From Chiloscyllium plagiosum (Eukaryota): a stretch of 64,000 nucleotides of DNA. How positions within the stretch are numbered: position 1 is the first letter of the stretch; the number at the start of each line of letters is the position of its first letter. The notes under the pieces are model-generated. The model saw nothing but the letters and a program-made list of their open reading frames with translations. It did no database searches and was not told the DNA's origin. This document shows positions 1 through 53,861 of the stretch, in pieces. The stretch lies in assembly GCF_004010195.1 (NCBI RefSeq), contig NC_057718.1, positions 57,584,660 to 57,648,659 of the forward strand, read 5' to 3'. The translations under genes were made by a program, and so were the position numbers.

Positions 1-12
1 TTCTAAACAAAA

Positions 13-66
13 TGGACGGGTTGGACCGAAGGGTCTGTTTCCATGCTGTACATCTCTATGACTCTA
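13..66 (+). mobile_element. CR1 LINE 3' terminal fragment
   Basis: GGACGGGTTGGACCGAAGGGTCTGTTTCCATGCTGTA...CTATGACTCTA matches the 3' ends of CR1 copies at ~40350-40392 and 50557-50610 (-). Confidence 0.7.
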
Positions 67-84
67 ATAGAGTGTCAAAAGCTG

Positions 85-292
85 AAGCTGCTGAAAAAGC
101 TCAGCATGTCTGGCAGCATCTATGGAGAGAAATCAGAGTTAACATTTCAGGTCCAGCGACCCTTCCGTGAGTTCTGAGGAAGGATCACCAGATGTGAAAC
201 ATTAACGCTGATTTCTCTTCACAGATGCTGCTAGACCCGCTGCGCTTTTCCAGCAATTTCTGATTTACAGCATCCATAGTTCTTTTGGCTTT
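85..292. mobile_element. Penelope-like element (PLE) terminal repeat, fold-back copy (subfamily 2)
   Basis: Imperfect inverted repeat centred near 167. The right arm matches the tail of the GIY-YIG-bearing PLE at 48600-48735 and contains CTGAGGA...GAAA at 174-199. Confidence 0.75.
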
Positions 293-689
293 TCTTTAGT
301 AATGGAGTGTCACAAGTCAGTATGATACGTGACTTTGTAGACAATGTTGCTTTATATTATGGAATCCAGTTCCAGGCTGGGTTTGCCTTCAATCTGGATA
401 CTGCATTTACAAGGAAGGCCTAGCCTGGGTTGGTCATCAATCTTTCAGGTTGCTGATAAGATCAAACCTAGCTGGGCAAAGATTTTAATTTGTGTTAATA
501 AATATTCAATTTAGCATAGAATGTATGTCGTCCATTTGCTTTACGGTATATTGCTTGGATGTAGTTAAAGGCTTAGGTTTTTCTGATAGTGTTCATATGA
601 TGTGTCAATTCAACCACATGTACTGTCTGACTAGGCTATTGCCAGCTATAACATCGCAGTTAGCTCTTGAACTTAATTGACATTGTTGG

Positions 690-755
690 TGTTGAGAGTG
701 TGTTGCTGGAAAAGCACAGCAGGTCAGGCAGCATCCGAGGAGCAGGAAAATCGAA
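690..755 (-). mobile_element. PLE terminal-repeat fragment (subfamily 1)
   Basis: GCTGGAAAAGCACAGCAGGTCAGGCAGCATCC is shared with 3211-3242. Confidence 0.7.
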
Positions 756-1147
756 TTTAGCAGCATTTAATCCACTGCTAAACTACTTCACGACTTGCAG
801 CTCACTGTCAGGGAATAGCCACTTTGACTCCCACACAATTAAGTATCTGTGGCTGCCTTTTTCACTGCTTAACCGCAGCTTCACTAGATTCTAACCATTG
901 TAATGGACGATCAGAAGGAAAGAGGGGAAGGCAGCAGACACAGAAGTTAGCTTGATGCCATTCTGCCCTAACTCCACATTTGGTTTAGGAAATGCAAATG
1001 GATCTAGGCTGCACCTAAAATTCCTGCCCCCAAAAGGCACAAGTTCTGACTTACAGCCTATCCCAACCAAACTATTTTTTGTTGTCAGTCAATTTTTTTC
1101 TTCAAATACACAGTCTTATTTTGTATTTTTCTTATTTGGTACCGCAT

Positions 1148-2157
1148 AGTCAAAACTCCAAGACTTAGGTCTGGCTCCGCCCTCTGTAACTGATTCCTCA
1201 GCTTCCTGGACCACTGCAATCAGTGAAGATAGACAACATCTCCTTCATGATAATCCTCAACACTGGCGCCCTGCAAGGATGTGTACTCAGTCCCTCACTG
1301 TACTTCCTGTACACTACGGCTGTGGCGCCAAATTTGCTGATGACACCGCATTGTAGGCTGGATATCAAACAATGATCAGTCAGAATACAGGGCTTGGTGT
1401 CATGGTGGAATAATAACAAACTTTCTCTCAATTTCAGCAAGACAAAAGAACTGATCATTGACTTCAGGAAGCAAGGGAGGGGACATGCCCCTATCTACAT
1501 CAATAGAGCTGAGGTGGATACGGTCGAAAGCCTCAAGTTCTGTGGAGTGCCAATAATCAACAATCTGTCCTGGGCCTCCCACGTCAGTGTGATGGTCAAG
1601 AAATCACAACAACCTTTCTTCCTCAGGAGGCTGAGGAAATTCGGCATGTCCATTTGGATCATCACCAACCTTTACAGATGCACCATAGAAAGCATTCTAT
1701 ATGGATGCATAATAACTTGGTTTGGCATCTGTTATGCCCAGGACTGTAAGAAACTACAGAGAATTGTGTACACAGTCCACACCATCAAGCAAGCCAACCT
1801 TCCATCCATGGACATTATCTATACTTCTTCAGCTGTGGAAAGGCTGCCAACATCATCAAAGACCCCTCCTACCCGGTAGTACTGTGTTCCAACCTTTTCC
1901 AGCAGGCAGAAGATACAGAAGCTTAAACACACATACCAACAGTCTCAAGAGCAGCTTCTTCCCCACTGTTATTAGACTGCTGAATAGAACTTTCTAATTT
2001 CAAACCTAATGTTGATCTTGCTTTTATGCATCTTATATGCCTCGCTCTGCTGAAACATCTTATGATCTGTATATCCTTGTATGTTATGATCTGCTTGCAA
2101 AGCAAAAGTTTTCACCGTACTTAGGTACATTGACAGCAATAAATCAAATCAAATCAC
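1148..2157 (+). mobile_element. Rex1/Babar-like LINE, 5'-truncated RT C-terminal half and 3' end
   Basis: NTGA.QGCVLSP motif near 1259-1295; ORF 1394-1879 has LSLNFSKTKELIIDFRK...FLRRLRKFG...YRCTIESIL; ends in (AAATC)3. Confidence 0.8.
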
Positions 2158-2171
2158 AGAGTAGACTAATC

Positions 2172-2490
2172 AGATTAGATTAGATTAGATTACTTACAGT
2201 ATGGAAACAGGCCCTTCAGCCCAACAAGTCCACACCGCCCGCCAAAGCGCAACCCACCCATACCCTACATTTACCCCTTACCTAACACTACGGGCAATTT
2301 AGCATGGCCAATTCACCTTACCTGCACATCTTTTGGACTGTGGGAGGAAACCGGAGCACCCGGAGGAAACCCACGCAGACACAGGGAGAACGTGCAAACT
2401 CCACACAGTCAGTCGCCTGAGGCGGGAATTGAACCCGGGTCTCTGGCGCTGTGAGGCAGCAGTGCTAACCACTGTGCCACCGTGCCGCCC
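2172..2490 (-). mobile_element. HE1/V-SINE-type tRNA-derived SINE
   Basis: Minus strand GGGCGGCACGGTGGCACAGTGGTTAGC (A box), GGTTCAATTCC (B box), CR1-like tail, (TCTAA)n; near-identical to 6256-6558 and 21085-21400. Confidence 0.9.
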
Positions 2491-3170
2491 ACGGTGTTTC
2501 ACCAGAATGTGACAGCCTGCTGTAAGGGTTAATATTTCTTTGGAATTTCTCTTCCTTGGATAGGATAGCTGGAGGTCAGGGAATGTTTCCGGAGTAGACA
2601 CTAAGGGGTCACTTGCTGTGTGTGAAGAAGGTGACAAGGGATGCCATAGCTGGAGTGGCTGGTGCACAAAACATCTAAAGTGCTAGAAGAGATGTGACCA
2701 AGATTGTGATTGAGCCTCAATGTTGACATTTGGTTCTAGCTGACAAAATATAGTTTTGCAAGGTTGGAAAATGAAAGGACACTGCAATGCATGTGTGTAT
2801 ACCTGCATGCTAATACCAGTGCCTGTGATTGAGCATTGTGCAGTCAGATTGAGCTATAGTAACTTAAGTCACTAGGAGTAAAAATTATAGGGATGAAATC
2901 AGGTATATGTAGGAAGGCAGGATTGAGAATAGGTAGGAAGCAACCTGCGGTATATCAGTTTGAAAAGTTAGATGCACTGTAAAATTGGCTATTAATTTGC
3001 TGCTGCCCATGTTACACCACTACCCAAGACCCATTCTTCCCCTTACCTGAAGATAAGAAGGATTTATAACTTTATATGTTGAAGAGATACTCTGCTGAAT
3101 TATGAGAATGAATGAGACATAAAGATCTTAATGTAAGGCTGCATTATATTATTGTCTATTATAGAATTGT

Positions 3171-3359
3171 GGAGAAAGTGAGGTCTGCAGATCAGAGCTG
3201 AAAATGTGTTGCTGGAAAAGCACAGCAGGTCAGGCAGCATCCAGGGAACAGGAGAATCGACGTTTCGGGCATAAGCCCTTCTTCAGGAATCCTGAAGAAG
3301 GGCTTATGCCCGAAACGTCGATTCTCCTGTTCCCTGGATGCTGCCTGACCTGCTGCGCT
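3171..3359. mobile_element. Young PLE-derived hairpin insertion with 16-bp flanking direct repeat
   Basis: 69-bp arms 3219-3287 / 3291-3359 (1 mismatch, 3-nt loop); CTATTATAGAATTGTG at 3156-3171 and 3358-3373. Confidence 0.9.
3286..3325 (+). ncRNA. Putative minimal type I hammerhead ribozyme
   Basis: GGAATC-CTGAAGA-A-GGGC TTAT GCCC-GAAA-CG-TC-GATTCT: complete CUGANGA/GAAA/GUC core, 6-bp stem I, 4-bp stem II, palindromic ACGT stem III. Activity untested. Confidence 0.7.
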
Positions 3360-3878
3360 ATTATAGAATTGTGTGTTACAACAGTCGTTTCTTTCCACAA
3401 TGCAACTTTTTCTTTGTTCATGAGAAACTGAGAATTATTCAAATAAACTGGATGGGAAATTTCAGGCTGTCATGATACTGTATCACTTGCATGCTCTGCC
3501 CCAGCAAAGTGGCAGAAAATCCTTAACTACAATGTAATTTTAGCCCTCAAGTTAGATTAGAAATACACTATCTGAGCTTTGTGAATTCCTGAAAACAAAA
3601 CCGCTGACTCAGTCATTCTATAATTCCAGTTATCCTGCCAAGAAATCACTTCGTGGCTTATGTTACGTCAAATCACTGAGTCATGATTACTTTAGAACTA
3701 TATATATTAGATGTATTGAACATAAGTCAACAGGCTTTTGTTTTGCTCATTTCAGATTTTACAAATGATCTGAACTGAGGCTTTAAGGAAAGATGTGAAA
3801 CAATGGCTCCAAATTACAAACATTAAGAATTAAAGAACTCTGAGCTTCTTTCTTCATATAGGTCATTTATTTTCCTCA

Positions 3879-4073
3879 GTTGAGGACGTGGTGCTGGAAA
3901 AGCACAGCAGGTCAGGCAGCATCCAAGGAGAGGGAGAAACTGATTCCCGATGAAGGGCTTATGCCTGAAATGTCAATTCTCCTGCTCCACAGATGCTGCC
4001 TGACCTGCTGTGCTTTTCCAGCAACACACTCTCAACACTGATCTCCAGCATCTGCAGTCCTCACTATCTCCTA
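3879..4073. mobile_element. PLE-derived partial hairpin insertion
   Basis: Same subfamily as 3171-3359; flanked by ATTTA(T/C)TTTCCTCA at 3865-3878 and 4074-4087; degenerate hammerhead core CCGATGA at 3947. Confidence 0.8.
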
Positions 4074-5197
4074 ATTTACTTTCCTCACCATGGACACTAT
4101 CCAGAGGATATACTCAAACTTCTGAGGAAGTCACTAAAATCACAAATAAAAGCCTAAGATGATAAATCTACATGAAACATTTACTTGACCTCCTGACATT
4201 CTGAAATTTAGTTAAGCTCAATACACAGCTAACGTTTTTATTATTCCAATAGGACACAAACATTTATGTTTCATTTAGACTTGGAAAAGCTTAAAGACCA
4301 TCCTAAACAGATAATCATTTATCTCTCCTTCTAAAGAATGAACGAACACACCTGAAATGGTTTACCTGCAAATGTTCTTGTTTATCTATTATTATCTGGA
4401 GACATTTTTAACTTGCTTGAATCAAAGAATACATGGGAGAAAAAACAAATAGTATAATACACTTTTATCTCAGACAAATGGATTCTAAATTGATGAATTC
4501 AATTTTTAAATTACTGCTGGGTTTAAAACTAGTATTGTCCACTGGTTGCCCACTGTAGAAACCAGTTAATTCACAATCCCAGCACATTAGCTGGGTGACA
4601 AGTTAAAGGTTTACTCAAATGTAGTGGTCTGAGATGTGATGAAAGCACATCTGTGTAAGAGAAGCAGCAAGCTGTGTTGGAGAATGATTGTAGTTTCCAT
4701 AAGGAAATAAGAAGTTATTTCTGAGACCACAAGTAAGTATGAAAGAAAATAAATTTAGGTTTCAGGGCAAGGTTATTGGGCCAACATAGAACATTCTGCA
4801 GCACAGTTCAGATGCATTTTCCGATTCCTAGTGTCATGCCAAATTGAACATTCAATTATGAAGTATCAAACTTGTAACAAGAACAGTGTTTATTTTTAAG
4901 ATGCTCTTTAGATGAGAAGATCAACGGACAAAACAAACTATTCTTACTGAATATATCACTTTCTGGGAAAGCATCAGTAACAGTTCAGAACTTGGTGCTG
5001 AGCTTTCCAATTGCATAACTACATGTACTTTCCATGTTGTGTCAGAAAACAATGGCTGGGAATTTGGGCTCAGCAGACCACCTCTGCAAATTAGTGGAAA
5101 TATTGTTTTGTATTTATGGAGGTGGGTTCCTAACCTTTTGGAATTTCAAGGAGTGCTGCAGGATACTGACAAAGAAGTCTCTGTTCACTAATACTTT

Positions 5198-5950
5198 CTG
5201 TGAGGTCATGCACTTTGGTAAGAAGAATTAAAAAGCATAGTATTATTTAAATGGAGAGTGACTCCAAGAATGTGTAGTGCACAGAATCTGGGAGTCGTTG
5301 TACATGAGTTACAGAAAGTTAGCATACAAGTACAGCAAGTAATTAAGAAAGTAAATGGCATTTTGACCTTTATTGCTAAGGGATTTGGAGTTTAAAAATA
5401 GGGAAATCTTATTCCAACTGTACAAGATGTTGGTGTGGCTGTACCTGGGATACTGTTTGCACCTTTTGGTCTCCATATTTGAGACAGGATGCACTGGCAT
5501 TGGAGGCAGTTTAAAAGACAATTATACAGGTTGGACCTTTATTCATTAGAGTTGAAAAGAATGTGGGGTGATTTTATTGAAACATACAAGATTCTGGGGG
5601 ACTTGACAGAATACATGTTGAGAAGGTGTTTCCCTCTAGTGGGGGAATCTTGAACAGGGAGATGGTTACAGAATAAGGGGACACTCATTTCAAACCAAGA
5701 TGTGAAAGGATTTCTTCTGTCAAAAAGTAACGAATGTCTGAAATTCTCTATAACAGAACGGTAGAGAGAGAAGATCATTGAAGGTATTTTTTTTTAAAAA
5801 AGAGGTAAATAGATTTTTGAAACATCAGTGAGTTCAAAGATATGTCATGAAAGAGGACTTAAGGCCTGGAGCTTATCAGCCACAATCTGTTGAAGACCAG
5901 GCTGCCTTGAAGAGCTGAATGGCCTTCTCTTACTCCAATTCTTATGTTCT
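5198..5950 (+). mobile_element. CR1 LINE 3' fragment (decayed)
   Basis: CEVMHFGKKN motif, LYK.LV...L.YC motif, 3' UTR ending GGCCT..T.TACTCC..TTCTTATGTTCT. Confidence 0.85.
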
Positions 5951-5977
5951 GATCTCAATTCTGTTTTATCTCCCATT

Positions 5978-6174
5978 AGGAGAAAGTGAGGACTGCAGAT
6001 GCTGGAGATCAGAGTCAAAAAGTGTGGCGCTGGAAAAGCACATCCAGTCAGGCAGCATCTGAGGAGCAGGAGAGTTGACCTTTTGAGCATAAGCTCTTCA
6101 TCAGATCAGTTCTTCACCCTGATGAGCTTATGCTCAATACTGCTTGACTGGCTGTGCTTTTCCAGCATCACACA
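5978..6174. mobile_element. PLE-derived partial hairpin insertion
   Basis: Starts with the family terminus GGAGAAAGTGAGGACTGCAGATGCTGG; flanked by TTATC(T/C)CCCATT at 5966-5977 and 6175-6186. Confidence 0.85.
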
Positions 6175-6255
6175 TTATCCCCCATTGTCCAATCTCTTCC
6201 TATCTACATTCATGACTCTTCCAATATCCTCTGTCACTTCAATAGTTTCCATCTT

Positions 6256-6558
6256 TAGATTAGATTAGATTACATTACAGTGTGGAAACAGGCCCTTCGG
6301 CCCAACAAGTCCACACCGACCCGCCGAAGCGTAACCCACCCATACCCCTACATTTACCCCTTACCTAACACTAGGGGCAATTTAGCATGGCCAATTCACC
6401 TGACCTGCACATCTTTGGACTGTGGGAGGAAACCAGAGCACCCGGAGACACGGGGAGAATGTGCAAACTCCACACAGTCAGTCGCCTGAGGCGGGAATTG
6501 AACCCGGGTCTCTGGCGCTGTGAGGCAGCAGTGCTAACTGCTGTGCCACCGTGCCGCC
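6256..6558 (-). mobile_element. HE1/V-SINE-type tRNA-derived SINE
   Basis: A and B boxes, (TCTAA)n tail; near-identical to 2172-2490 apart from a short internal deletion. Confidence 0.9.
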
Positions 6559-7735
6559 TACAACCTTTCTGGCCCTAAGTGTTTATTTTTTCACTGGGGC
6601 CGTCCAATCCTTCTACATCTCCAATCATCAGCAAAACATTCTAGAGTTCTAGAGCTTGCTGTTTTTTTTTCTTGAATGGGGACCGAACCAGTTCTCATCC
6701 ACAATCACACTCCTCCACTTGACTGAACTTGTTCTCATATTAAACAAATACCTTTTTAACTCCCATTCACTTTCTCCAAATAAATGGAATAAAACCTTTA
6801 AGTTTCCTAGCAGTTTCTGACTTCTTGTGGGAAATGTGAATCATTCTTTGTTCCAGTATTATTTAGGCATTACTTCCTGCTCTTGAACTGAACTGGAAAA
6901 TTTAATTAACTTTGCTTCCAATTACCACTCTTCGCTGGTCCATCTCTGACTTGCCTTTCCTTCTTAGACTTCTTTGTTTCCATTTTTGGGGATAGCCAAT
7001 TTAGTGGTGAGTCTTGGCTGAGAGCCCAGACATCCATTACTCTCTTGAAACATCAGAGCCTCCACTTGATTGACAGCTCTGACTGTCTGATCTCTGTCAA
7101 TTTCATACTTATTTACACAAGATTAATAGATTTCAAATACCTGCAGTTTCAGTCTTGAAACTTCAAAGGATTTGGATAATTAACAAAATGATTACCCGTA
7201 GCAGAAGAGAGTTAATTTCAACACGGTGGTATGTTTTCCATGAATTCTATTCAAGCGTTTTTTTCTTACACAAACTACTTTCACCATCGAGTTCATTGGT
7301 TGGATATTGTGTGTAGTGGGTCAATGGCCAAAGAAGTGCCTTAACCTAGCACAAGACGATAAAGGAGGATTTTTTTAAAAAAAGGATCAATGCTGACATT
7401 GGCCGAAAACTTTTGTAGTTTCAAGAAGACTGAGAACAGGAGAAACCACAATCTCCAGCTGTAAATTTCGACATCAGCCATCTGTTTGACTAATCCAAGA
7501 CGAGCAAACTGTTTGAAGCAAGCAGGAGATCAGCATCCTCCTGCGGGAACCACGAAACAGTTTTCACCTATTACAGGGTTGAATGTCTCTTCTATGTATG
7601 TACTTCATGCATCATATATAAATTATGGTTAGTTAACTGTTTTAAAATCAGTTATGATTTTGATCGCCTTGTTGAGTAAACTGATTTTGAGACCAAAACC
7701 ATATAGAGGAGCTCTCCAGAAAAGTGTGTTGTCCT

Positions 7736-8241
7736 CCCTGAGACCTGTGAGCCTGTGGCAGCCCCTGGACTCTGTGAGCCTGTGGTCACTCTGGGCCCTA
7801 TGTACCTTTGTCGCTCCTTGACCCTGTGAGCCCAAGGTCATCCCTGGGCCCTGTGAGCACATGGTCATTCCTGGGACCTGTGAGCCTGTGGCAGCCCCTG
7901 GACCCTGTAGTCACTCCAGGCCCTGTCAGCCTGTTGTCACCCCGGGCCCTGTCAGCCTGTAGTCACCCCGGACTCCGTCAGCTTGTAGTCACCCTGGGCC
8001 CTGTGAACCTGTGCCAGCCCCCGGACCCTGTCAGCCTGTAGTCTCCCCAGGCCCTGTGAGCCTGTAGTCACCCTGGGCCCTGTTAGCCGGTAGTCACCTG
8101 GGCCCTGTCTGTCTGTAGTTGTCCTGGGCCCTGTCTGCCTGTAGTCGCCCTGGGCCCTGTCTGCCTGTAGTTGCCCTGGGCCCTGTGAGCCTGTAGTCGC
8201 CCTGGGGCCTGTCAGCCTGTGTCGCCCCTGGACCCTGTGAG
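7736..8241. repeat. GC-rich minisatellite, ~26-bp unit, about 19-20 copies
   Basis: Consensus approximately CCCTGGGCCCTGTGAGCCTGTAGTCA in tandem with variants. Confidence 0.9.
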
Positions 8242-8561
8242 TATTATGGCCCCTGTTGCTGGCAGTTATCACAGCTAGTGTTTACCTGCCAACCTCCAGG
8301 TGACAGGCCACATACAAAGAGCTGGCTGGTTCATTCTGACACCATTTTTGGAAAGTAATTCCCAAGTAAAACCATAATTGTTCCAATTGGATGCTTGCCT
8401 CCATACTGTAGGCTGACAAACTTTGTTCCTCGCCCATCCCTGGGAACTTTCCCACTGGCAAGGCAACATCTGGCTGCCATCCTGACATTGTATTCCACAC
8501 TCATCCCAATTTCCTAGTTCCTCCATCTCCACATCAGAAAATGCAGCCTGCTAATCCCATT

Positions 8562-8645
8562 TCCCTTGTCACAGATAGTGTCAGATTTGCTGAGTATTTC
8601 CCATTTAAATTTGAGATTTCAAGTATCTGCAGTAATTTGTTCTTG
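8562..8645 (+). mobile_element. Decayed PLE terminal fragment
   Basis: ACAGAT.GTGTCAGATTTGCTGAGTATTTC...ATCTGCAGTAATTTG resembles 48652-48730. Confidence 0.55.
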
Positions 8646-8779
8646 TTTTGATGAGTTCAAAAGAATCAGTTGGCTTGTTTCTTCAGTTATGGGTTCTATT
8701 CCTGCATTCTTCTTGGGCGGCAGTAAGACTTGAAAATGGAACAGACTGCAAAGAAGGCAAAAGTGAGCAGAGGGAAACT

Positions 8780-8905
8780 GAACAGAAGATCCTACGCTCT
8801 AAGAATCATGAAGCAATACTTCTCCTACCTCCATCACAGCCAGAAGCAGAATTGGAAAGACCTCAAGTTCACCAAGGAGGCTGCGAGTGATCTTTGCAAT
8901 CTGAG
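8780..8905 (+). mobile_element. Harbinger (PIF) transposase N-terminal remnant
   Basis: RRSYALRIMKQYFSYLHHSQKQNWKDLKFTKEAASDLCNL resembles the HARBI1-like N-terminus and the homologous segment at 54520-54630. Confidence 0.5.
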
Positions 8906-9001
8906 GCCACAGAACCGGACAGAGGAGGCTGTCGTGATATACATCATTTCTACATCAGTAGATCCTTCAGAGCAGGTCACTTCAGCAACTTCTCTCATTT
9001 T

Positions 9002-12000
9002 CTTTTACTTATTCATTTTGTGGGATGTGGGCATCACTGGCTAGCAAACAATTATTGCTTGGCTCTAGTTGCCCTTGAGAAGGTGGTGATGGGCTGCCTT
9101 CTTGAACTACTGTAGTCCACCTGCTGTGGGTTGACCCACAATGCTACTAGGGTGAGAATTCCAGGATATTGACCCAGCGGCAGTGAAAAAATGGTGATAT
9201 ATTTCCAAGTCAGGTGGTGGTGTTCCCATACATCTGCTGTCTTTGTCCTTCCAGATGGAAGTGGTCATGGGTTTGGATGGTGTGGTCTGAGGATCTTTGG
9301 TGATTTTCTGCAGTGTATCTTGTAAATAGTACACACTGCTGCTACTGAGTGTCGGTGGAGGAGGGAGTGAATGCTTATGGATGCAGTGCTAATCAAGCGG
9401 GCTGCGTTGTCCTGGATGGTGTCAAGTTTCTTGAGTGTTGTTGAAGCAGCACTCATCCAGGCAAATGGGGAGCATTCCATTACACACCTGACTTGTACCT
9501 TGTAAATGATGGACAGGCTTTCGGGAGTCAGGAGGTAACTTACTCGCCACAGTATTCATAGCTTCTGACCTTCTCTTGTAGTCACTGCGGTTATGTGGCG
9601 AGTCCAGTAGAGTTTCTGATCAATGATAACTCCCAGAATGTTAATAGTGAGGGTTTCTTTGGTGGTAACACTGTTGAATGTCAAGGGATGGTGTTAGATG
9701 ATCTCTTATTTGTGATGGTCGTAGCCTGGCATTTGTGTGGCACGAATGTCACTTGCCACTTGTCAGCCCAGGCCTGGATATTATCCAGATCTTGCTTCAT
9801 TTGTACATAGACTGGTTCAGTGTCTGAGGAGTCATGAATGGTGCTGAATATTTCACAATCAGGGACTATCCCCACTTTTGACCTGATGATGGAGGGAAGG
9901 CCTTTGATGAAGCAGTTGAAAGTAGTTGGGCTGTAAATACTACCTGAGGAACTCCTGCAGAGATTCCCTGGACCTGACTTGACTGACCTCCAACAACCAC
10001 GATCATCTTGCTATGTCAAGTACGACTCCAACCAGTGGAGAGTTTGCCCCGATTCCCATTGATTCCAGTTTTGCTAGGGCTCCTCGATGCCACACTCCAT
10101 TGAATGCAGCCTTGATGTCAAGGGCCATCACTCTCACCTCTTCTTTGGAATTCAGCTCCTTTATCCATGTTTGAACTAAGGCTGTAATCAGATCAGGAGC
10201 TGAGCGGCCCTGGCAGAACCTAAACTGGGCTTCACTGAGCAGGTTATTGCTGAGCAGGTGCTGCTTGACAGCACTGTTGATGACACATTCCATCACTTTC
10301 CTGATGATTGAGAAAAGACTGGTGGGGTGGTAATTGGCCAGGTTGGATTTGTCCTGCTTTTTTTGCACAGGGCATACCTGGTCAATTTTCCACATTGTCA
10401 AGCAGCTGCCAGTGTTGTAACTGTCTGGAACAGCTTGGCTAGGGGAGTGGCAAGTTCTGGAGCACAAGGCTTCAGTACTATTGCTGGAATGTTGTCAGGG
10501 CCTCCAACTGTTTCTTGATATCATGTCGAGTGAATCGAATTGGCTGAAGACTGGTATCTGTAATGCTGGGGACCACTGAAGAAGGCTGAGATGGATCATC
10601 CACCCGGCACTTCTGGCTGAAGATTGCTGCAAAAGTTTCAGTCTTAGCTATTTGTGGAGTCTCCTCCTTCAGTGAGTTGTTTAAATGTCCACCACCCTTC
10701 TTGACTAGATTATGCAGGACTGCAGAGCTTAGATCTGATCCATTGGTTGTGGGATCGATTAGCTCTATCACTTGCTACTTATGCTGTTTGATGTGCAAGT
10801 AGTCCTGTTTGGTGACTTCACCAATTTGACACCTCATTTCAGGAATACCTGGTGCTGCTCCTGGCATGCCATCCTGCACTCTCCATTGAACCAGGGTTGA
10901 TCCCCTGGCTTGATGGTAATGGTTGAGTGGGGGATATGCCAGGCCATGAGTTTGCAGATTGTGCTGGAGTACAGTTCTGCTGCTGTTGATGGCCCACAGC
11001 GCCTCATGGATGCCCAATCTTGAGTTGCTAGATCTGTTTGAAGTCTGCCCCATTCAGTGCAGTGATAGTGCCACACAAGACAATATATTCTCAATGTGAA
11101 GGTGGGTCTTTGGCTCCACAAGGACAGTATGGTGGTCAGTCTTACCAATACTGTCATAGACAGATACATCTACAGCTGGCAGATTATGAAGGATGAGGAA
11201 AAGTATGTTTTTCCCTCTTCTTGGTTCATTCACCACTTGCTGCAGACTCAGTCGAGCAGCTATATCTTTAGGACCCGACCAGCTCAGTCAGTAGTACTGC
11301 TGCCTAGCCACTCTTGGATATTGAAATTTCCCACCCAGAGTACATTTTGTGCCCTTGCCATTTTGTGCTTCCTCTAAATGTTGTTCAACATGGAAGAGTA
11401 CCAATTCATCAGGTGAGGGAGGATGGTATGTGGGAAGCAGCAGGAGGTTTCCATGCCTATGTTTCACCTGAAGCCATGAGACTTCTTGGGGTCCAGAGTC
11501 AATGTTGAGGACTCCCAGAGCAACTCCCTCCTGGCTGTATATCACTGCGCTGCCACCTCTGCTAGGTTCATCCTGCTGGTGGGACAGGATATATCCAGGG
11601 GTGGTGATGGTGCTATCTGGGACATTGTCTGTAAGGTATGATTTTATGAGTATAACTATGTCAGATTGTTGTTTGATTAGTCTGTGAGACAGCTCTCCCA
11701 ATTTTGGCACTAGCCCCCAGACGTTAGTAAGGAGAACTTTGCAGGGTTGTCAGGGCTGTTTCTGCTGTTGTCCTTTCTGGTCTTCAGGTCGATGCCAGAT
11801 GATCCTTCCAGTTTCATTTCTTTGAGATTTTGTAGCAAGTGGTACAACTGAATGGCTTGCTAGGCCATTTCAGAGGGCAACTGAGAACCAACCACATTGC
11901 TGTGGGTGTGGAGTTCCATGTAGGCCAGACCAGGTGAGCATGGCAGATTTCTGTCCCTGAAGGACATTAGTGAACCAGATGGGATTTTCTGACAATCAAT

Positions 12001-17130: not shown

Positions 17131-17851
17131 TGTGAAGATTAGGCTCTGAAATTTTAAATGGAGAGCATTCCTGTTCCTCTTTCATGGGCATTTCCACTTT
17201 GGTATCAGGAAATAGAGCACTACTTCCTTCTCCATACTATGCAACACCAAACAATGTTGCAAAACATTTTTGGACCAGAGATGCACTCCTCATTAAACTG
17301 TTAGTGAAGAATGTTAAGAGGTTACACCAAAACAGCAAGCTCCTTGTCAGTGGTGGGTTTAATGTTGAGAATGTGTACTGAATAAAATATGCGAGCTGAG
17401 CCCGCAAGATTTGATGGGTCTGGTTAACAAATTGGGAAAGAATCATCTGTATACTCAGATTCGAATAGGGTTACGCATTTGTTTGTTTGCCTTGCTTAGT
17501 TATTTTGTTTTACAGTAGAATAGTATCCTGTAAATTGGAGTAAAGCCACTGCATTGGAATGGAGTTCTCAGATGACAGAATGGAGACATTGGCCTGGATT
17601 TTAATGGAAGCCACAGAGACTCCAAAATGGTGGCCGGACCCTGGACTTGGAAGCCCTGGAAAATCCCAACTTTACCAGGAGGGAAGGTCAGGTAGGTGTG
17701 GGTGAGTGGATGACGGGTTTTGATATCTGATTAACATGGTGGAAACCCAACTTAGCTTGGTCATTTGAACTCAGTGCTAAGTTTAAAGATACCCCATTTT
17801 TGCTACAGCAAGGGCCTCAACCTTTAGCATGACGTAAACCCAGGCAAATAG

Positions 17852-18474
17852 TGCGGTGAAGAAGGCATATGGCGTACTGGCTTTTATTGGTAGAGGAATT
17901 GAGTTCCGGAGTCCTGAGGTCATGTTGCAGTTGTATAAGACTCTGGTGCGGCCACATCTGGAGTATTGTGTGCAATTTTGGTCGCCATACTATAGGAAGG
18001 ATGTGGAGGCACTGGAACGGGTGAAGAGGAGGTTTACCAGGATGTTGCCTGGTATGGTAGAAAGATCGTATGAGGAAAGGCGGAGGCACTTGGGGTTGTT
18101 TTCATTGGAGAAAAGAAGGTTTAGGGGTGACTTGATAGAGGTTTACAAGATGATTAGGGGTTTAGATAGGGTTGACCGTGAGAACCTTTTTCCATGTATG
18201 GAGTCAGCTATTACGAGGGGGCATAGCTTTAGATTAAGGGTTGGTAGGTATAGGACAGATGTTAGGGGTAGGTTCTTTACTCAGCGAGTCGTGAGTTCAT
18301 GGAATGCCCTGCCAGTAGCAGTGGTGGACTCTCCCTCATTATGGCATTTAAGTGGGCATTGGATAGGCATATGGAGGATAGTGGGCTAGTGTAGGTTAGG
18401 TGGGCTTGGATCGGTGCAACATCGAGGGCCGAAGGGCCTGTACTGCGCTGTATTCTTCTATGTTCTATGTTCTA
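17852..18474 (+). mobile_element. Young CR1 LINE 3' fragment
   Basis: ORF 17856-18389 LQLYKTLVRPHLEYCVQFWSP...RGDLIEVYK...TRGH..., 3' stem-loop GGGCCGAAGGGCCT and (TTCTATG)n tail; CpGs retained. Confidence 0.95.
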
Positions 18475-25524: not shown

Positions 25525-26300
25525 TTCCAAGAGAGGTGAGTACATTGCATTCTTCCTTGTCAGAGCTGCATAGGTGGAGTGAGCACATGGCACCTGGGGC
25601 AACTTGTAATCCTGAAGCTATCTTTCACTGACCATACTCATTTCATTTTGCAATCTATCCACCCTTCAGGCACTCTGCCTCTTTCCTGATGAAGGGCTTT
25701 TGCCCAAAACGTTGATTTCCCTGCTCCTCGGATGCTGCCTGAACTGCTGTGCTTTTCCAGCACCACTCTAATCCAGAATCTGGTTTCCAGCATCTGCAGT
25801 CATTGTTTTTACCTTGCAGATCATATATGTCAATTCTTGGATGTGCCATGAATGGGAAGGGATTCCACTGCCTCAATGTCTGATGGTGTATGACTGAAAT
25901 CAACAGGTCATGCAAGACACTGCTTAGTTACCCAGCAGTAACCACATGTTCACCATGCCATCTAAATTTCAACCATCACATAAAACTAGAGAGTGGCTAC
26001 TGGACAATGTAGGTTATCTATTGACCACTTGGCTCATGACTCTGGTGCAGAACCCACAGCCACATGGAAAGTGTGAATGAAATGAAAGCTATGCTTCCAC
26101 ACCATCTTTCACTGAAAAGATCATTGTGGTGCTTGTGTAACACATCCATTGCTTACACAGCACTGCAGGAGCCCAGCAGCTCTCCCCAGAGTTTCTGCCA
26201 TGATTCACGATAGTCTGCTGCACTCTGCAAAGCCACCATTACGAAAGTTCAGCCATTGGCATAATGGATGCAGTGTGCAGCTAAAGGGGAGGAGGGAAAA
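25525..26300 (+). mobile_element. Harbinger transposase remnant (DDE region)
   Basis: NGKGFHCLNV (~25851), WLLDNVGYLLTTWLMTLVQNP (~25994-26056) and NESYAST...EKIIVVL match the HARBI1-type motifs NRKGFHSLNV, LLGD.GYPL..WLMTP, YN..H..TR..IE. Confidence 0.75.
25655..25814 (+). mobile_element. PLE terminal repeat inserted in the Harbinger transposase
   Basis: CTGATGAAGGGCTTTTGCCCAAAACGTTG...GATGCTGCCTGAACTGCTGTGCTTTTCCAGC...CATCTGCAGTC. Confidence 0.8.
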
Positions 26301-26934: not shown

Positions 26935-27144
26935 TCGAAAAGTGTGGCACTGGAAAGGTATAGCAGATCAGGCAGCATCCAAGAAGCAGGAGAGTCGACA
27001 TTTCGGGCATAATCCCTTCAACAGGACATATGCCCAAAATGTCAACTCACCTGCTCCTCAGATGCTGCCTGACCTGCTGTGCTTTTCCAGTGCTACACTT
27101 TTCAACTTTGACTCTCCAGCATCTGCAGTCCTCACTTTCTCGCA
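26935..27144. mobile_element. PLE-derived hairpin insertion
   Basis: Inverted arms around ~27025; perfect 11-bp flanking repeat GTATGGCAAAA at 26924-26934 and 27145-27155. Confidence 0.85.
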
Positions 27145-32027: not shown

Positions 32028-33163
32028 TATAACACAAAACAGCACAGGAACAGGCCTTTGGCCCACCAAACCTGTGCCAATTCCTAATCCTTATTTGGAC
32101 CCATTACATATGACCCATACGTGGTTTCTATTCCCTCTGTTCGCCTCCCATTCATGTGTCTATCAAGACACATCTTAAACATTGCTAATGTGCCTGCTTT
32201 CACCACCTCCACTGGCAGCATATTCCAGGCACCCATGACTGTCTGTGTGAAAAACTTCCTCGCACTTTTCCCTGAAACTTGCCCCCTCTCATCTTGAACC
32301 CGTGCCTTCATATAGTTGACCTTATCATCCTGCGATAAAGCTTCTGACTATCCACCCTATCTATGCAATTCATAATTTTGTAGATCCCTCAGCCTCTGTC
32401 TTTCCAGTAAAAACAATCTGGGTTTATCCAACCTCTTTATAACTAAAACCCTCCAGCCCAGGCAACATCCTGGGAATTCTTCTCTGCCCCCTCTCCAAAG
32501 ATTCCATGTCCTTCTGGTAGTGTGGTGACCAGAACGGCATGCACTATTCCAAAAGTGGTCTAGCTAAAGTTTCATACAGCTGTAACATAACTTGCCAACT
32601 TTTATACTCGATACCCTGACTGATGAAGACAAGTGGGCTGTATAGCTTCTTGATCACCTTATCCACCTGTGTAGCCACTTTCAGGGGTCCAGATCCTTCC
32701 ATATGAGACAAAAAAAACTGCAGGTGCTGGGAGTCAAGGTAGACAAGCTGGATGCTGGAAGAACACAGCAAGCCAGGCAGTATCAGGAGGTGGAGAAATC
32801 AACATTTTGGGTTGAACCCTTCTTCAGAATCCCTCTATGTAAATGTCTGAAGGGTTCTGCCATTCATTGTATTATTCACATCTGAATTTGATCTTCCAAA
32901 ACGCATCACCTCACGTTTGTCCAGGTTAATCTCCATCAGCCATTTCTCTGCCCAAATCTGCAATCTATCTATATCCCACTGTATCCTCCTCAAAAAATTT
33001 AATCAAGTTGGTGAGACATGACCTTCCTTGCACAAACCTGTACTGCCTATCTCTAACAAATCCATTTGCTTCCAGGTGTGAATAAATCCTGTCTCTCAGT
33101 ATCTTCTCCAATAGCTTTCCCCACCACTGACCTCACGCTCACCGGCCTGTAAATACTAGGATT
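32028..33163 (-). mobile_element. CR1 LINE fragment (RT C-terminus to 3' end)
   Basis: ORFs 32544-32771 (SQGIEYKS..VMLQLYETLARPLLE) and 32084-32311 (FFTQ.V.GAWN.LP). Confidence 0.85.
32705..32830 (-). mobile_element. PLE terminal repeat (third subfamily) nested in CR1
   Basis: AACTGCAGGTGCTGG...GCTGGAAGAACACAGCAAGCCAGGCAG; minus strand reads CTGAAGA-A-GGGT TCA ACCC-AAAA-TG-TT. Confidence 0.75.
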
Positions 33164-42678: not shown

Positions 42679-42858
42679 GAGGAGAAAGTGAGGACTGCAG
42701 ATGCTGGAGATCAGAGTCAAAAAGTCTGGAACTTGAAAAGCATAGTATGTCAGGCAACATCTGAGAAGCAGGACAGTTGACATTTCAGGCATAAGCTCCT
42801 CTTCCTGCACCTCGGATGCTGCTTGATTGGCTGTGCTTTTCCAGCACCACACTTTTTA
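42679..42858. mobile_element. PLE-derived partial hairpin insertion
   Basis: Perfect 14-bp flanking repeat AATGTGTGAGCAGG at 42665-42678 and 42859-42872; family terminus GGAGAAAGTGAGGACTGCAGATGCTGG. Confidence 0.9.
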
Positions 42859-47934: not shown

Positions 47935-48735
47935 GTGGTCCCCTCCTCCTCCACTTCTCATGCCTCCTCACAACCCCACAGCACTGATCACGGCAATCTC
48001 AGGTGGTATTTTACCTGCCTGTATACCTTCTCCCTCCTCACCATCCAAGGCTCCAGGCACACTTTCCAGGTGAAGCAGCTATTTACCTGCAATCACTCAG
48101 TCTAGTCTATTGCATTTGCTGGTCACAATGCCGTCTCCTCCAGAATGGAGAGATGAACATGTGTCCTATTGGCAAAAATGATCCAGTGTTTCTGACTACC
48201 TGCCACTTCAACACACCACCCTGTTCCCTGACCAACGTTTCTGTATTGGGCTTGCTGCAGTGCTCCAACAACGCTCAGGGCAAGCTGGATGTACAGCACC
48301 TCATTTTTCACTTGGAGACCCTACAGGTTTCTGGCCTCAATGTTGAGTTCAATCATTTTAGGTCCTGAACACCTTCCCCCACTATCCGTACGCCAGGCCT
48401 TGTCAGCATATGGGCTGCTATCACAACCAACCCATTGTCAGCTATTGATTCTCGCAGGATGAATTTTACCCATTCCTTCATCTGTCTAACTGCTGTTCTT
48501 TCTCTCGCTGGGCTCCAACTCCACCTATCATTTACTCCTCCTCTTTCACCCAATCCAATCTTCAGCTTATATACCAATCTTTTCCTAGCCACAAATTAGT
48601 TCTGAAGAAGGGTCAGTGGATCTGAAACATTAATTCTGTTTTCTCCCCATGGATGCTGCCAGACCTGCTGAGTTTCTCCAGCAATTTCTGTTTTTGTTTC
48701 AGATTTCCGGCATCTGCAGTTCTTTAGCTTTTGTT
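47935..48735 (+). mobile_element. PLE GIY-YIG endonuclease remnant and 3' terminal repeat
   Basis: ORF 48003-48368 LVYCICWSQC.LL..GE...CHFN...HLIFHLETLQ.SGLNVEF (PLE GIY-YIG); tail with hammerhead-like motif at 48598-48635. Confidence 0.85.
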
Positions 48736-51764: not shown

Positions 51765-53861
51765 TTAAAGGGAACACTTAGGAAGCAGCGATCATAATAT
51801 GGTAGAGTTCAGTCTGCAGTTTGAAAGAGAGAAGGCAAAATCAGATGTAATGGTGTTACAGTTAAATAAAGGTAATTGTGAAGGCATGAGAGAGGAACTG
51901 ACGAAAATAGACTGGAAGCAGAGCCTAGCAGGGAAGACAGTAGAGCAAAAATGGCAGGGAGTTTGTGGGTATAATTGAGGACACCGTATAGAGGTTCATC
52001 CCCAAGAAAAGAAAGATTATCCAGGGAGGGATTAGACAGCCATGGCTGACAAAGGAAGTCAGGAAATGTATTAAAGAAAAAAAGAGATCCTATAAAGTGG
52101 CCAAGAGCACTGGGAAATCAGAAGATTGGAAAGGCTACAAAAACAAACAGNNNNNNNNNNNNNNNNNNNNNNNNNNNNNNNNNNNNNNNNNNNNNNNNNN
52201 NNNNNNNNNNNNNNNNNNNNNNNNNNNNNNNNNNNNNNNNNNNNNNNNNNNNNNNNNNNNNNNNNNNNNNNNNNNNNNNNNNNNNNNNNNNNNNNNNNNN
52301 NNNNNNNNNNNNNNNNNNNNNNNNNNNNNNNNNNNNNNNNNNNNNNNNNNNNNNNNNNNNNNNNNNNNNNNNNNNNNNNNNNNNNNNNNNNNNNNNNNNN
52401 NNNNNNNNNNNNNNNNNNNNNNNNNNNNNNNNNNNNNNNNNNNNNNNNNNNNNNNNNNNNNNNNNNNNNNNNNNNNNNNNNNNNNNNNNNNNNNNNNNNN
52501 NNNNNNNNNNNNNNNNNNNNNNNNNNNNNNNNNNNNNNNNNNNNNNNNNNNNNNNNNNNNNNNNNNNNNNNNNNNNNNNNNNNNNNNNNNNNNNNNNNNN
52601 NNNNNNNNNNNNNNNNNNNNNNNNNNNNNNNNNNNNNNNNNNNNNNNNNNNNNNNNNNNNNNNNNNNNNNNNNNNNNNNNNNNNNNNNNNNNNNNNNNNN
52701 NNNNNNNNNNNNNNNNNNNNNNNNNNNNNNNNNNNNNNNNNNNNNNNNNNNNNNNNNNNNNNNNNNNNNNNNNNNNNNNNNNNNNNNNNNNNNNNNNNNN
52801 NNNNNNNNNNNNNNNNNNNNNNNNNNNNNNNNNNNNNNNNNNNNNNNNNNNNNNNNNNNNNNNNNNNNNNNNNNNNNNNNNNNNNNNNNNNNNNNNNNNN
52901 NNNNNNNNNNNNNNNNNNNNNNNNNNNNNNNNNNNNNNNNNNNNNNNNNNNNNNNNNNNNNNNNNNNNNNNNNNNNNNNNNNNGAGGAAGTGGGGAGGCT
53001 GCAGAAGGATCCTAGACAGTTTGGGAGAGTGGTCCAGGAAATGGCTGATGGAATTCAATATGAGCAAATGCGAGGTCTTGTACTTTGGAAAAAAGAATAC
53101 AAGCATGGACTACTTTCTAAATGGTGAGAAAATTCATAAAGCCAAAGTACAAAGGGATCTGGGCGTGTGAGTCAAGGATTCTCTAAAGGTAAACATGCAG
53201 GTTGAGTCTGTGAGTAAGAAAGCAAATGCAATGTTGTCATTTATCTCAAGAGGGTTGGAATATAAAAGCACCGTTGTGCTACTGAGACTTTATAAAGCTC
53301 TGGTTAGGCCCCATTTGGAGTACTGTGTCCAGTTTTGGACCCCACACCTCAGGAAGGACATACTGGAACTGGAGCGTGTCCAGCGGAGATTTACATGGAT
53401 GATCCCTGGAATGGTAGGTCTAATATATGAGGAATGGCTGAGGATCCTGGGATTGTATTCATTGGAGATTAGAAGATTAAGGGGAGATCTAATTGAAACT
53501 TACAAGATAATACATGGCTTGGAGAGGGTGGACGCTAGGAAATTGTTTCCATTAGGCGAGGATACTAGCACCCGTGGACACAGCCTTAGAATTAGAGGGG
53601 GTAAATTCAGAACAGAAATGTGGAGACATTTCTTCAGCCAGAGAGTGATGGGCCTGTGGAATTCATTGCCGCGGAGTGCAGTGGGGGCCGGGATGCCAAA
53701 TGTCTTCAAGGCAGAGATTGATAAATTCTTGATGTCACAAGGAATTAAGGGCTACGGGGAGAATGCGGGTAAGTGGAGTTGAAATGCCCATCAGCCATGA
53801 TTGAATGGCGGAGTGGACTCGATGGGTCGAATGGCCTTACTTCCACTCCGATGTCTTATGG
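51765..53861 (+). mobile_element. Young CR1 LINE spanning the assembly gap
   Basis: APE end EHLGSSDHNMVEF (~51772-51810), QPWLTKE linker, RT C-terminus ORF 53195-53782 (LYKALVRPHLEYCVQFW), CR1 3' UTR. Confidence 0.9.
52151..52983. other. Assembly gap (833 N)
   Basis: Run of N. Confidence 1.

What the first reader, a model, noticed from the sequence alone, without database searches (positions are those of the whole stretch)
3286..3325. Core-intact minimal hammerhead ribozyme in a young Penelope-derived insertion
Seen: GGAATC | CTGAAGA | A | GGGC-TTAT-GCCC | GAAA | CG | TC^ | GATTCT. All conserved catalytic-core nucleotides are present (CUGANGA, GAAA, GUC cleavage triplet ending at 3319). Stem I is GGAATC/GATTCT (5 Watson-Crick + 1 G-U), stem II is 4 bp with one extra A after A9, and stem III is reduced to the palindrome ACGT. 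The fold-back places a mirror copy on the minus strand (3253-3292, stem I with one mismatch). Known: Penelope-like elements carry minimal type I hammerheads with palindromic stem III that are thought to act as dimers. Inference: this shark repeat family spreads potentially self-cleaving motifs through non-coding DNA; the class of motif is known, but this family or copy may be unannotated.
Basis: partly seen in the sequence, partly recalled or inferred. Interest (0 to 1): 0.72.

Follow-up and report, generated by a model that had tools for sequence, protein, structure and literature searches.

The report
Hammerhead trapped in Penelope palindrome stub
The hammerhead-ribozyme motif is real but ordinary: it is one of over 50,000 exact copies left in this genome by what is very likely a Penelope-type jumping gene, and this copy sits in a mirror-image stub whose RNA is predicted to zip into one long hairpin, so it likely cannot cut itself.

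Summary
The motif at 3286-3325 reads as described. It is the known minimal hammerhead of Penelope-like elements (PLEs): 54,284 exact core matches genome-wide, reversed control 0. The core stays invariant while stems covary across lineages.

It lies in a 186-bp head-to-head insertion with a 16-bp target duplication and a one-sided tail, a described PLE layout.

Two corrections. The 6-bp stem I is made by the junction (618 loci share it); the parent's stem I is 2 bp + U·U + 1 bp.

Family statistics suggest a mechanism. Copies start 1-6 nt before the core, with a 4.8-fold excess of a non-element G at -5. There is no clear pile-up at the cut site, and the tail falls on either arm. This fits two reverse transcripts running off a capped, uncleaved RNA and joining. 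The scan noted this reading before on other DNA, including this genome (e1-9027279). Cleavage is untested.

The parts
3156..3171 (+). Left copy of the target-site duplication (16 bp; its last base could also belong to the element)
   Evidence: only flank repeat of 8 nt or more found around the boundaries, 16/16 identical to 3358-3373
3172..3288 (-). Long arm: PLE terminal-repeat (pLTR) fragment in antisense, from the ribozyme's 5' edge to the long 3' end, with a 9-nt deletion in the tail
   Evidence: ends at reference position 125, as one arm does in 31 of 31 such junctions
3172..3200 (-). One-sided 'tail' (about 35 nt in the family, between the long and short 3' ends; boundary approximate)
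   Evidence: two recurrent 3' ends, near 88-92 and 124-126 nt from core C3
3253..3292 (-). Mirror hammerhead motif with the family's native ATTC before the core, preceded by G; stem I has a U.U mismatch
3286..3292 (.).
   Evidence: 618 exact loci; native upstream is CCTCATTC
3286..3325 (+). Minimal type I hammerhead motif: core 3292-3298, extra A 3299, stem II 3300-3311, GAAA 3312-3315, palindrome ACGT 3315-3318, predicted cut after 3319
3290..3357 (+). Short arm: sense pLTR fragment, ending about 20 nt before the family's usual short end
3358..3373 (+). Right copy of the target-site duplication (first two bases also match the element)

Best explanation
This is a 186-bp head-to-head stub of what is very likely a Penelope-like retroelement, carrying that family's minimal hammerhead on each strand; the ribozyme is likely inactive here because any read-through RNA is predicted to form one 66-70-bp hairpin. 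Shown: the motif, the arms, the tail, the target duplication, the copy number, and that the 6-bp stem I comes from the junction. Inferred: the element's protein nicks both target strands about 14-16 bp apart and primes two cDNAs at two internal sites of the RNA (long and short ends). Each cDNA reads through the uncut ribozyme and runs off an RNA 5' end about 4 nt before the core, often gaining a C (cap-templated or untemplated). The two ends then anneal. Selection on the hammerhead acts in the active master elements, where it would cleave weakly, as a dimer or with protein help; the dispersed stubs are passengers.
For: Layout matches described EN+ PLE insertions: inverted 5'-truncated pLTR, 30-40-bp one-sided tail, target duplication (PMC8557442 and PMC3846280, passages). 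In 31 of 31 loci with this junction exactly one arm reaches the long end, and 25 of 31 short arms end near the short site. The long arm is on either side (13 vs 18), and 21 of 31 have their own exact 12-18-bp duplication. A finding-type motif lies 1,208 nt downstream, same strand, of DNA 79% identical to a weakly RT-like coding stretch; sister-type motifs lie 1,134 and 1,161 nt downstream. The core is invariant and 6 of 8 stem pairs change on both sides across lineages, 0/500 shuffles. 21,635 of 44,859 core matches lack the native C at -12; 29 of 30 such loci leave the native sequence within 6 nt of the core. G at -5: 2,665, against A+T 1,626, 4.8-fold over composition. Only 2 of 25 breaks near the cut site fall on it. 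Fold. In the anole PLE, RT starts at two internal sites and uses uncut RNA (PMC11167929, part 2 read).
Against: The element's protein could not be shown to be PLE-type by tools. Pfam RVT_1 was only E=0.2, the Atlas family hit was a cluster with 19% RVT_1 members, and a GIY-YIG search of the genome gave one weak, unrelated match. Most coding DNA next to the motifs reads N in the fetched loci. The extra G is clearly outside the target duplication in only 3 of 9 simple insertions; in 6 it lies inside the duplication, and 9 of 30 loci could not be classified. The loose-end consensus at -4 in RNA reads does not show the extra base (agreement 0.39). No RNA start was seen (table 6 empty). A modest excess of ends at the cut site is not excluded: by eye 8 of 100 rows, or 15 with 7 ambiguous junction rows, against 5-10 at each neighbouring position. 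Folding is an equilibrium prediction.
Confidence: 0.8

Rival explanations
1. This copy is an active ribozyme in some RNAs. A transcript starting near 3286, or two such RNAs pairing through ACGU, would fold the 6-bp stem I and cleave after C3319, perhaps better than the parent.
For: 3286-3325 alone folds as a hammerhead, with stem I pair probabilities 0.72-1.0, against 0.07 or less in parent context. All core bases are intact. 618 loci share the junction.
Against: Six more upstream bases (3280-3335) already drive stem I to 0.00. No reads on the unique flanks in about 2% of one RNA run. Minimal PLE hammerheads had no detectable monomer activity (PMC4209133). The cofolded dimer pairs through stem II, not stem III.
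Confidence: 0.07
2. The stub formed by fold-back self-priming of a single cDNA or antisense template (the model in PMC3846280), not by joining two cDNAs.
For: Published reading of palindromes at PLE inverted junctions. 18 of 31 loci, this one included, have the orientation that a hairpin closed on GG-AAT-CC would give.
Against: In 13 of 31 loci the tail-bearing arm lies on the other side. Self-copying of a cDNA begun at the short end cannot produce the longer arm (inference).
Confidence: 0.2
3. The palindrome is a non-autonomous MITE-like or retrozyme-like unit that amplifies as a whole.
For: The same 43-nt centre occurs 618 times; the arms resemble terminal inverted repeats.
Against: Arm ends vary from copy to copy and the tail switches side. 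No other of the 30 loci examined shares this copy's short-arm end. There is no tandem array, unlike non-LTR retrozymes (10.64898/2026.07.22.740005, passages).
Confidence: 0.03
4. The pile-up of 5' ends before the core marks an RT pause, splice site or structure boundary rather than a capped transcription start, and the G comes from target-site microhomology.
For: The G lies inside the target duplication in 6 of 9 simple insertions. An intron end maps to the 5' side of helix I in D. virilis Penelope (PMC4209133). Subfamily B copies are mostly longer.
Against: The native base at -5 is C, so microhomology with the element would favour C, not G. G before a -3 start is rare: 18 of 100 rows by eye, about 450 copies, against 2,665 at -5 (the T share of that control is inflated by deletions). 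The junction explained by an added C is 2.4 times commoner than the perfect palindrome, 618 vs 259 loci.
Confidence: 0.3

Closest known systems
Minimal hammerheads (min-HHR) of metazoan PLEs (Cervera and de la Pena 2014, PMC4209133; parts 1-2 of 4 read)
   Same: Core boxes, extra base between 9 and 10.1, G10.1-C11.1, palindromic 15.2-16.2, thousands of solo copies, several covarying families per genome.
   Different: Stem II is 4 bp, not the 7-8 bp of S. mansoni. Native stem I is weaker (2 bp + U.U + 1 bp). The copy number (over 54,000 exact) exceeds the 4,000-9,000 given for coelacanth and Xenopus. No shark is named in the parts I read; figures and supplementary alignments were not seen.
Poseidon from Anolis carolinensis (Frangieh et al. 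2024, PMC11167929; parts 1-2 of 4 read)
   Same: Hammerhead upstream of two RT start sites that bracket the tail; both target strands extended; uncut RNA is the main template.
   Different: The coding fragments here look like a different clade (Neptune-like motifs, recalled, not tested). The parts I read do not describe 5' ends piling up before the core or an extra G.
EN+ PLE insertion unit: inverted pLTR, tail and TSD (PMC3846280, PMC8557442; passages)
   Same: Head-to-head inverted pLTR, one-sided tail of 30-40 bp, target duplication, palindromic junction, Inr-like motif in the pLTR.
   Different: Here the whole insertion is only the two pLTR ends (186 bp), and the duplications (12-18 bp) are longer than the 8-10 bp in A. 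vaga. Tail-side switching argues against their self-priming model.
Non-LTR retrozymes (10.64898/2026.07.22.740005; passages)
   Same: Non-autonomous, PLE-related, hammerhead-bearing; one chondrichthyan genome was sampled.
   Different: Those are tandem arrays. This is a dispersed inverted stub with a minimal motif.

Membership tests
Metazoan PLE min-HHR | Core CUGANGA, GAAA, UH triplet | tested here: met
Metazoan PLE min-HHR | Extra base between positions 9 and 10.1; G10.1-C11.1 pair | tested here: met
   A3299, G3300-C3311; G10.1 invariant in 11 of 11 rows
Metazoan PLE min-HHR | No helix III loop; palindromic 15.2-16.2 | tested here: met
   ACGT 3315-3318
Metazoan PLE min-HHR | Short helix I (4-5 bp) | tested here: inconclusive
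   6 bp in this copy, but junction-made; parent 2 WC + U.U + 1 WC; 3-4 WC in other lineages
Metazoan PLE min-HHR | Families with compensatory stem changes around a fixed core | tested here: met
   lineage majority lines anchored downstream of the motif; 6 of 8 pairs change on both sides (rows hand-picked, 7 of 11 found by the core descriptor)
Metazoan PLE min-HHR | Self-cleavage as a dimer or with protein | not testable with these tools
   needs an in vitro assay; RNA reads showed no end pile-up, a weak test
Rfam hammerhead families | Covariance-model match | tested here: not met
   none at E<=10 in window 1-10000; the motif lacks the stem III loop those models are recalled to expect
EN+ Penelope-like element | Inverted 5'-truncated pLTR with a one-sided 30-40-bp tail | tested here: met
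   31 of 31 loci
EN+ Penelope-like element | Target-site duplication | tested here: met
   16 bp here; 12-18 bp in 21 of 31
EN+ Penelope-like element | Telomerase-like RT upstream of the pLTR | tested here: inconclusive
   RVT_1 E=0.2; Atlas 0.92 to a cluster with 19% RVT_1; same spacing to finding-type and sister-type motifs
EN+ Penelope-like element | C-terminal GIY-YIG endonuclease | tested here: inconclusive
   family search gave one weak, unrelated match; a Cys-rich GIY-YIG-like stretch was recognised by eye (motif recalled)
Non-LTR retrozyme | Head-to-tail tandem array | tested here: not met
   single inverted pair
MITE-like unit | Fixed ends shared by the copies | tested here: not met

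The most novel reading that the evidence does not exclude
Tens of thousands of stubs record the PLE insertion reaction in vivo. The RNA starts, capped, four bases before the hammerhead core. The protein copies it uncut from two internal sites on both target strands. The added C lets the two cDNA ends pair as GAATC/GAATC around one A.A mismatch, and repair of that mismatch sets which arm carries the tail. The hammerhead then has at most a 4-5-nt 5' strand in the leader copy, so it would be switched off there and could cleave only in the downstream pLTR or a dimer.
Probability: 0.4. Interest if true: 0.55.

Novelty: new member of a known kind. Interest (0 to 1): 0.28.

Why it matters
The copy itself matters little: it is one of tens of thousands, and the motif class was described in 2014. 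The family is useful as a natural data set. How PLE tandem and inverted structures form is named as open in PMC8557442, and the ends of these stubs give testable numbers: an RNA start at -4, an added base, uncut template, and two cDNAs per insertion. It is also a caution for ribozyme scans: insertion junctions can build a better stem I than the element has, while the same geometry silences the motif.

Tried and rejected
Rfam: no hammerhead match. The microRNA-precursor matches are all far below gathering score and reflect the perfect hairpin; rejected.

GIY-YIG family search of the genome: one weak match, uninformative.

A Pfam scan of the coding fragments next to finding-type motifs was not run, so the link of that subfamily to an RT rests on DNA similarity.

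Sequencing runs: no RNA holder listed. Run X17 laid 0 reads, which is no test. Contigs of X12 and X13 match the left flank without differences, but overlap the junctions by under 31 letters, so they do not formally bridge them; these runs may also be the assembly's source.

Footprint of self-cleavage (copies starting at the cut): looked for, not found.

Slippage onto the downstream GATTC as the source of the extra G: rejected, since C precedes that G in only about 10 of 100 rows by eye.

ORF scan: no ORF of 170 aa or more near the finding; host-gene context is unresolved.

Literature: the paper on dimer cleavage by PLE hammerhead variants (Lünse et al., recalled) is not held. Searches for a shark PLE palindrome or hammerhead, PLE start sites, PLE cryo-EM and cap-derived G gave no description of this family or of an extra G in PLEs. 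Subscription papers, Repbase and Dfam were not searchable, so absence from print is not established. Cap-templated G at full-length L1 5' ends and the Inr consensus are recalled, not sourced.

Full report
Observation. The motif lies at the centre of an inverted repeat; window 3240-3340 folds at -99.5 kcal/mol, z = -22. The insertion spans 3172-3357 between 16-bp direct repeats at 3156-3171 and 3358-3373. Its arms pair over 70 nt with one CpG-type mismatch. A sequence-independent descriptor found 18 motifs in 455,250 unselected bases against 1 in the reversed control. Rfam found no hammerhead in window 1-10000.

Family. The core-to-triplet pattern has 54,284 exact matches in the 3.56-Gb genome, control 0. 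The finding's subfamily (A at position 7) has 44,859 matches to a 23-mer. Majority lines for seven groups of 6-80 copies, each collected by an anchor downstream of the motif, keep CUGANGA, GAAA, CG and UH while stems I and II differ. The exception is the six-copy group D, which reads AAAA, as expected from CpG decay. In an alignment of 11 hand-picked copies (7 found by the core descriptor, 4 by the downstream anchor) the invariant columns are the core and G10.1. Six of 8 stem pairs change on both sides, 0 of 500 shuffles reach this, and slid structures fall to 11-54% pairing. Relatedness inflates the shuffle test. These features match the min-HHR of metazoan PLEs (PMC4209133, parts 1-2 of 4 read).

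Is it a PLE? The layout says yes. In 31 of 31 loci sharing this junction (the window plus 30 of 618) exactly one arm runs to a long end 124-126 nt from core C3. The other arm stops near a short end (25 of 31 at 84-107, alignment overrun included) or earlier (6 of 31, this copy among them). 21 of 31 have their own exact 12-18-bp duplication. An inverted pLTR, a one-sided 30-40-bp tail and a TSD are the described PLE unit (PMC8557442 and PMC3846280, passages). In the anole element the tail is the stretch between two RT start sites (PMC11167929, parts 1-2 of 4 read). Protein evidence is weaker. A coding stretch upstream of a sister-subfamily motif gave RVT_1 at E=0.2 and an Atlas score of 0.92 to a cluster with 19% RVT_1 members. 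DNA 79% identical to it lies 1,208 nt upstream of a finding-type motif. A GIY-YIG search gave one weak, unrelated match. Most coding DNA reads N in the fetched loci, and the PLE-like motifs I recognised are recalled.

Correction 1: stem I. Where copies keep their own upstream DNA it reads CCTCATTC (2,963 exact matches to one long variant). That gives 2 pairs, a U.U mismatch and 1 pair. None of the 30 loci has six consecutive pairs. The GGAATC strand of this copy is the end of the opposite arm. In parent context stem I has pair probability 0.07 or less.

Correction 2: context. Only 3286-3325 by itself folds as a hammerhead. In the whole insertion stems I and II are 0.00 on both strands. In about 2% of one polyA single-cell run, 223 reads lay on the repeat and none on the unique flanks. 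On a parent-like locus 1,754 family reads lay with no pile-up of starts or ends; this library type is a weak test. Published minimal PLE hammerheads are inactive as monomers and weak as dimers, or protein-assisted and dispensable for insertion in vitro. In the retrozyme preprint 1 of 9 dimers cleaved (passages).

How the stub likely formed. 21,635 of 44,859 subfamily matches lack the native C at -12. Of 30 such loci, 29 leave the native sequence within 6 nt of the core, and 7 of the 8 that start at -4 have G before it. Genome-wide, with the commonest junction excluded, G at -5 occurs 2,665 times and A or T 1,626 times, 4.8-fold over composition. G before a -3 start is about 450 copies (18 of 100 rows by eye, of 2,518). 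In RNA reads 111 loose ends sit at -4. By contrast, copies breaking around the predicted cut are few (1,114 pass the filter; the denominator was not measured) and spread out: 2 of 25 breaks on the cut by script, 8 of 100 rows by eye, or 15 with ambiguous rows, against 5-10 at each neighbouring position. The sequence at -6 to +1 fits an initiator consensus (recalled). I infer that cDNAs run through the uncut ribozyme to an RNA 5' end at -4 and gain a C, and that two such ends anneal around one mismatch. That would explain why this junction outnumbers the perfect palindrome 618 to 259 and why the tail is on either side, 13 vs 18. The 13 cannot come from self-copying of one cDNA. Against this: the G is outside the target duplication in only 3 of 9 simple insertions, 12 of 30 were fold-backs and 9 of 30 unclassified; the loose-end consensus does not show the extra base; sister subfamily B is mostly longer; and assembly may under-count perfect palindromes.

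Novelty. The motif class, its place in the pLTR and the insertion layout are published. My searches found no description of this family or of the extra G in PLEs, but Repbase, Dfam, subscription papers and the supplements of the papers cited were not seen and may hold it. I wrote down the run-off idea before consulting the scan's notes. Those notes hold 51 findings with the same words, including the same reading in this genome (e1-9027279); they are unchecked and add no independent support. Verdict: real, a new member of a known kind, likely inactive at this locus; interest 0.28.

Noticed in passing
window 89-256, 693-754, 3888-4048, 5980-6179, 25683-25766, 26939-27141, 32753-32832, 42682-42855, 48647-48684: Older, decayed members of the same repeat superfamily, several also head-to-head; none keeps an intact core by the descriptor.
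   Followed up: partly
L111:2939-2988 (+), L099:8718-8767 (-), two more in L111: An unrelated repeat family with its own minimal hammerhead (longer stem II, GUU triplet, 3-bp stem I) and a CA-rich downstream stretch; likely a second PLE lineage.
   Followed up: partly
L093:3607-3650 (-) and rows: A subfamily variant with GAATC after the triplet restores a perfect 4-bp native stem I; the best candidate in this lineage for a cleavage assay.
   Followed up: no
rows, e.g. G000:C1:98823922-98823956: 7 of 100 rows join an antisense arm ending at the usual 5' site directly to the sequence just after the predicted cut; either the same annealing used internally or microhomology with the variant subfamily.
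   Followed up: partly
window 7731-8254: Tandem array of about 26-bp units, 60-90% alike.
   Followed up: no
window 2172-2492 and 6257-6561: Two copies of a roughly 320-bp SINE-like repeat, 93-97% identical in the matched blocks.
   Followed up: no
window 17838-18389 and 53171-53782: Open frames that look like the C-terminal part of CR1/L2-type LINE ORF2 (identification recalled).
   Followed up: no
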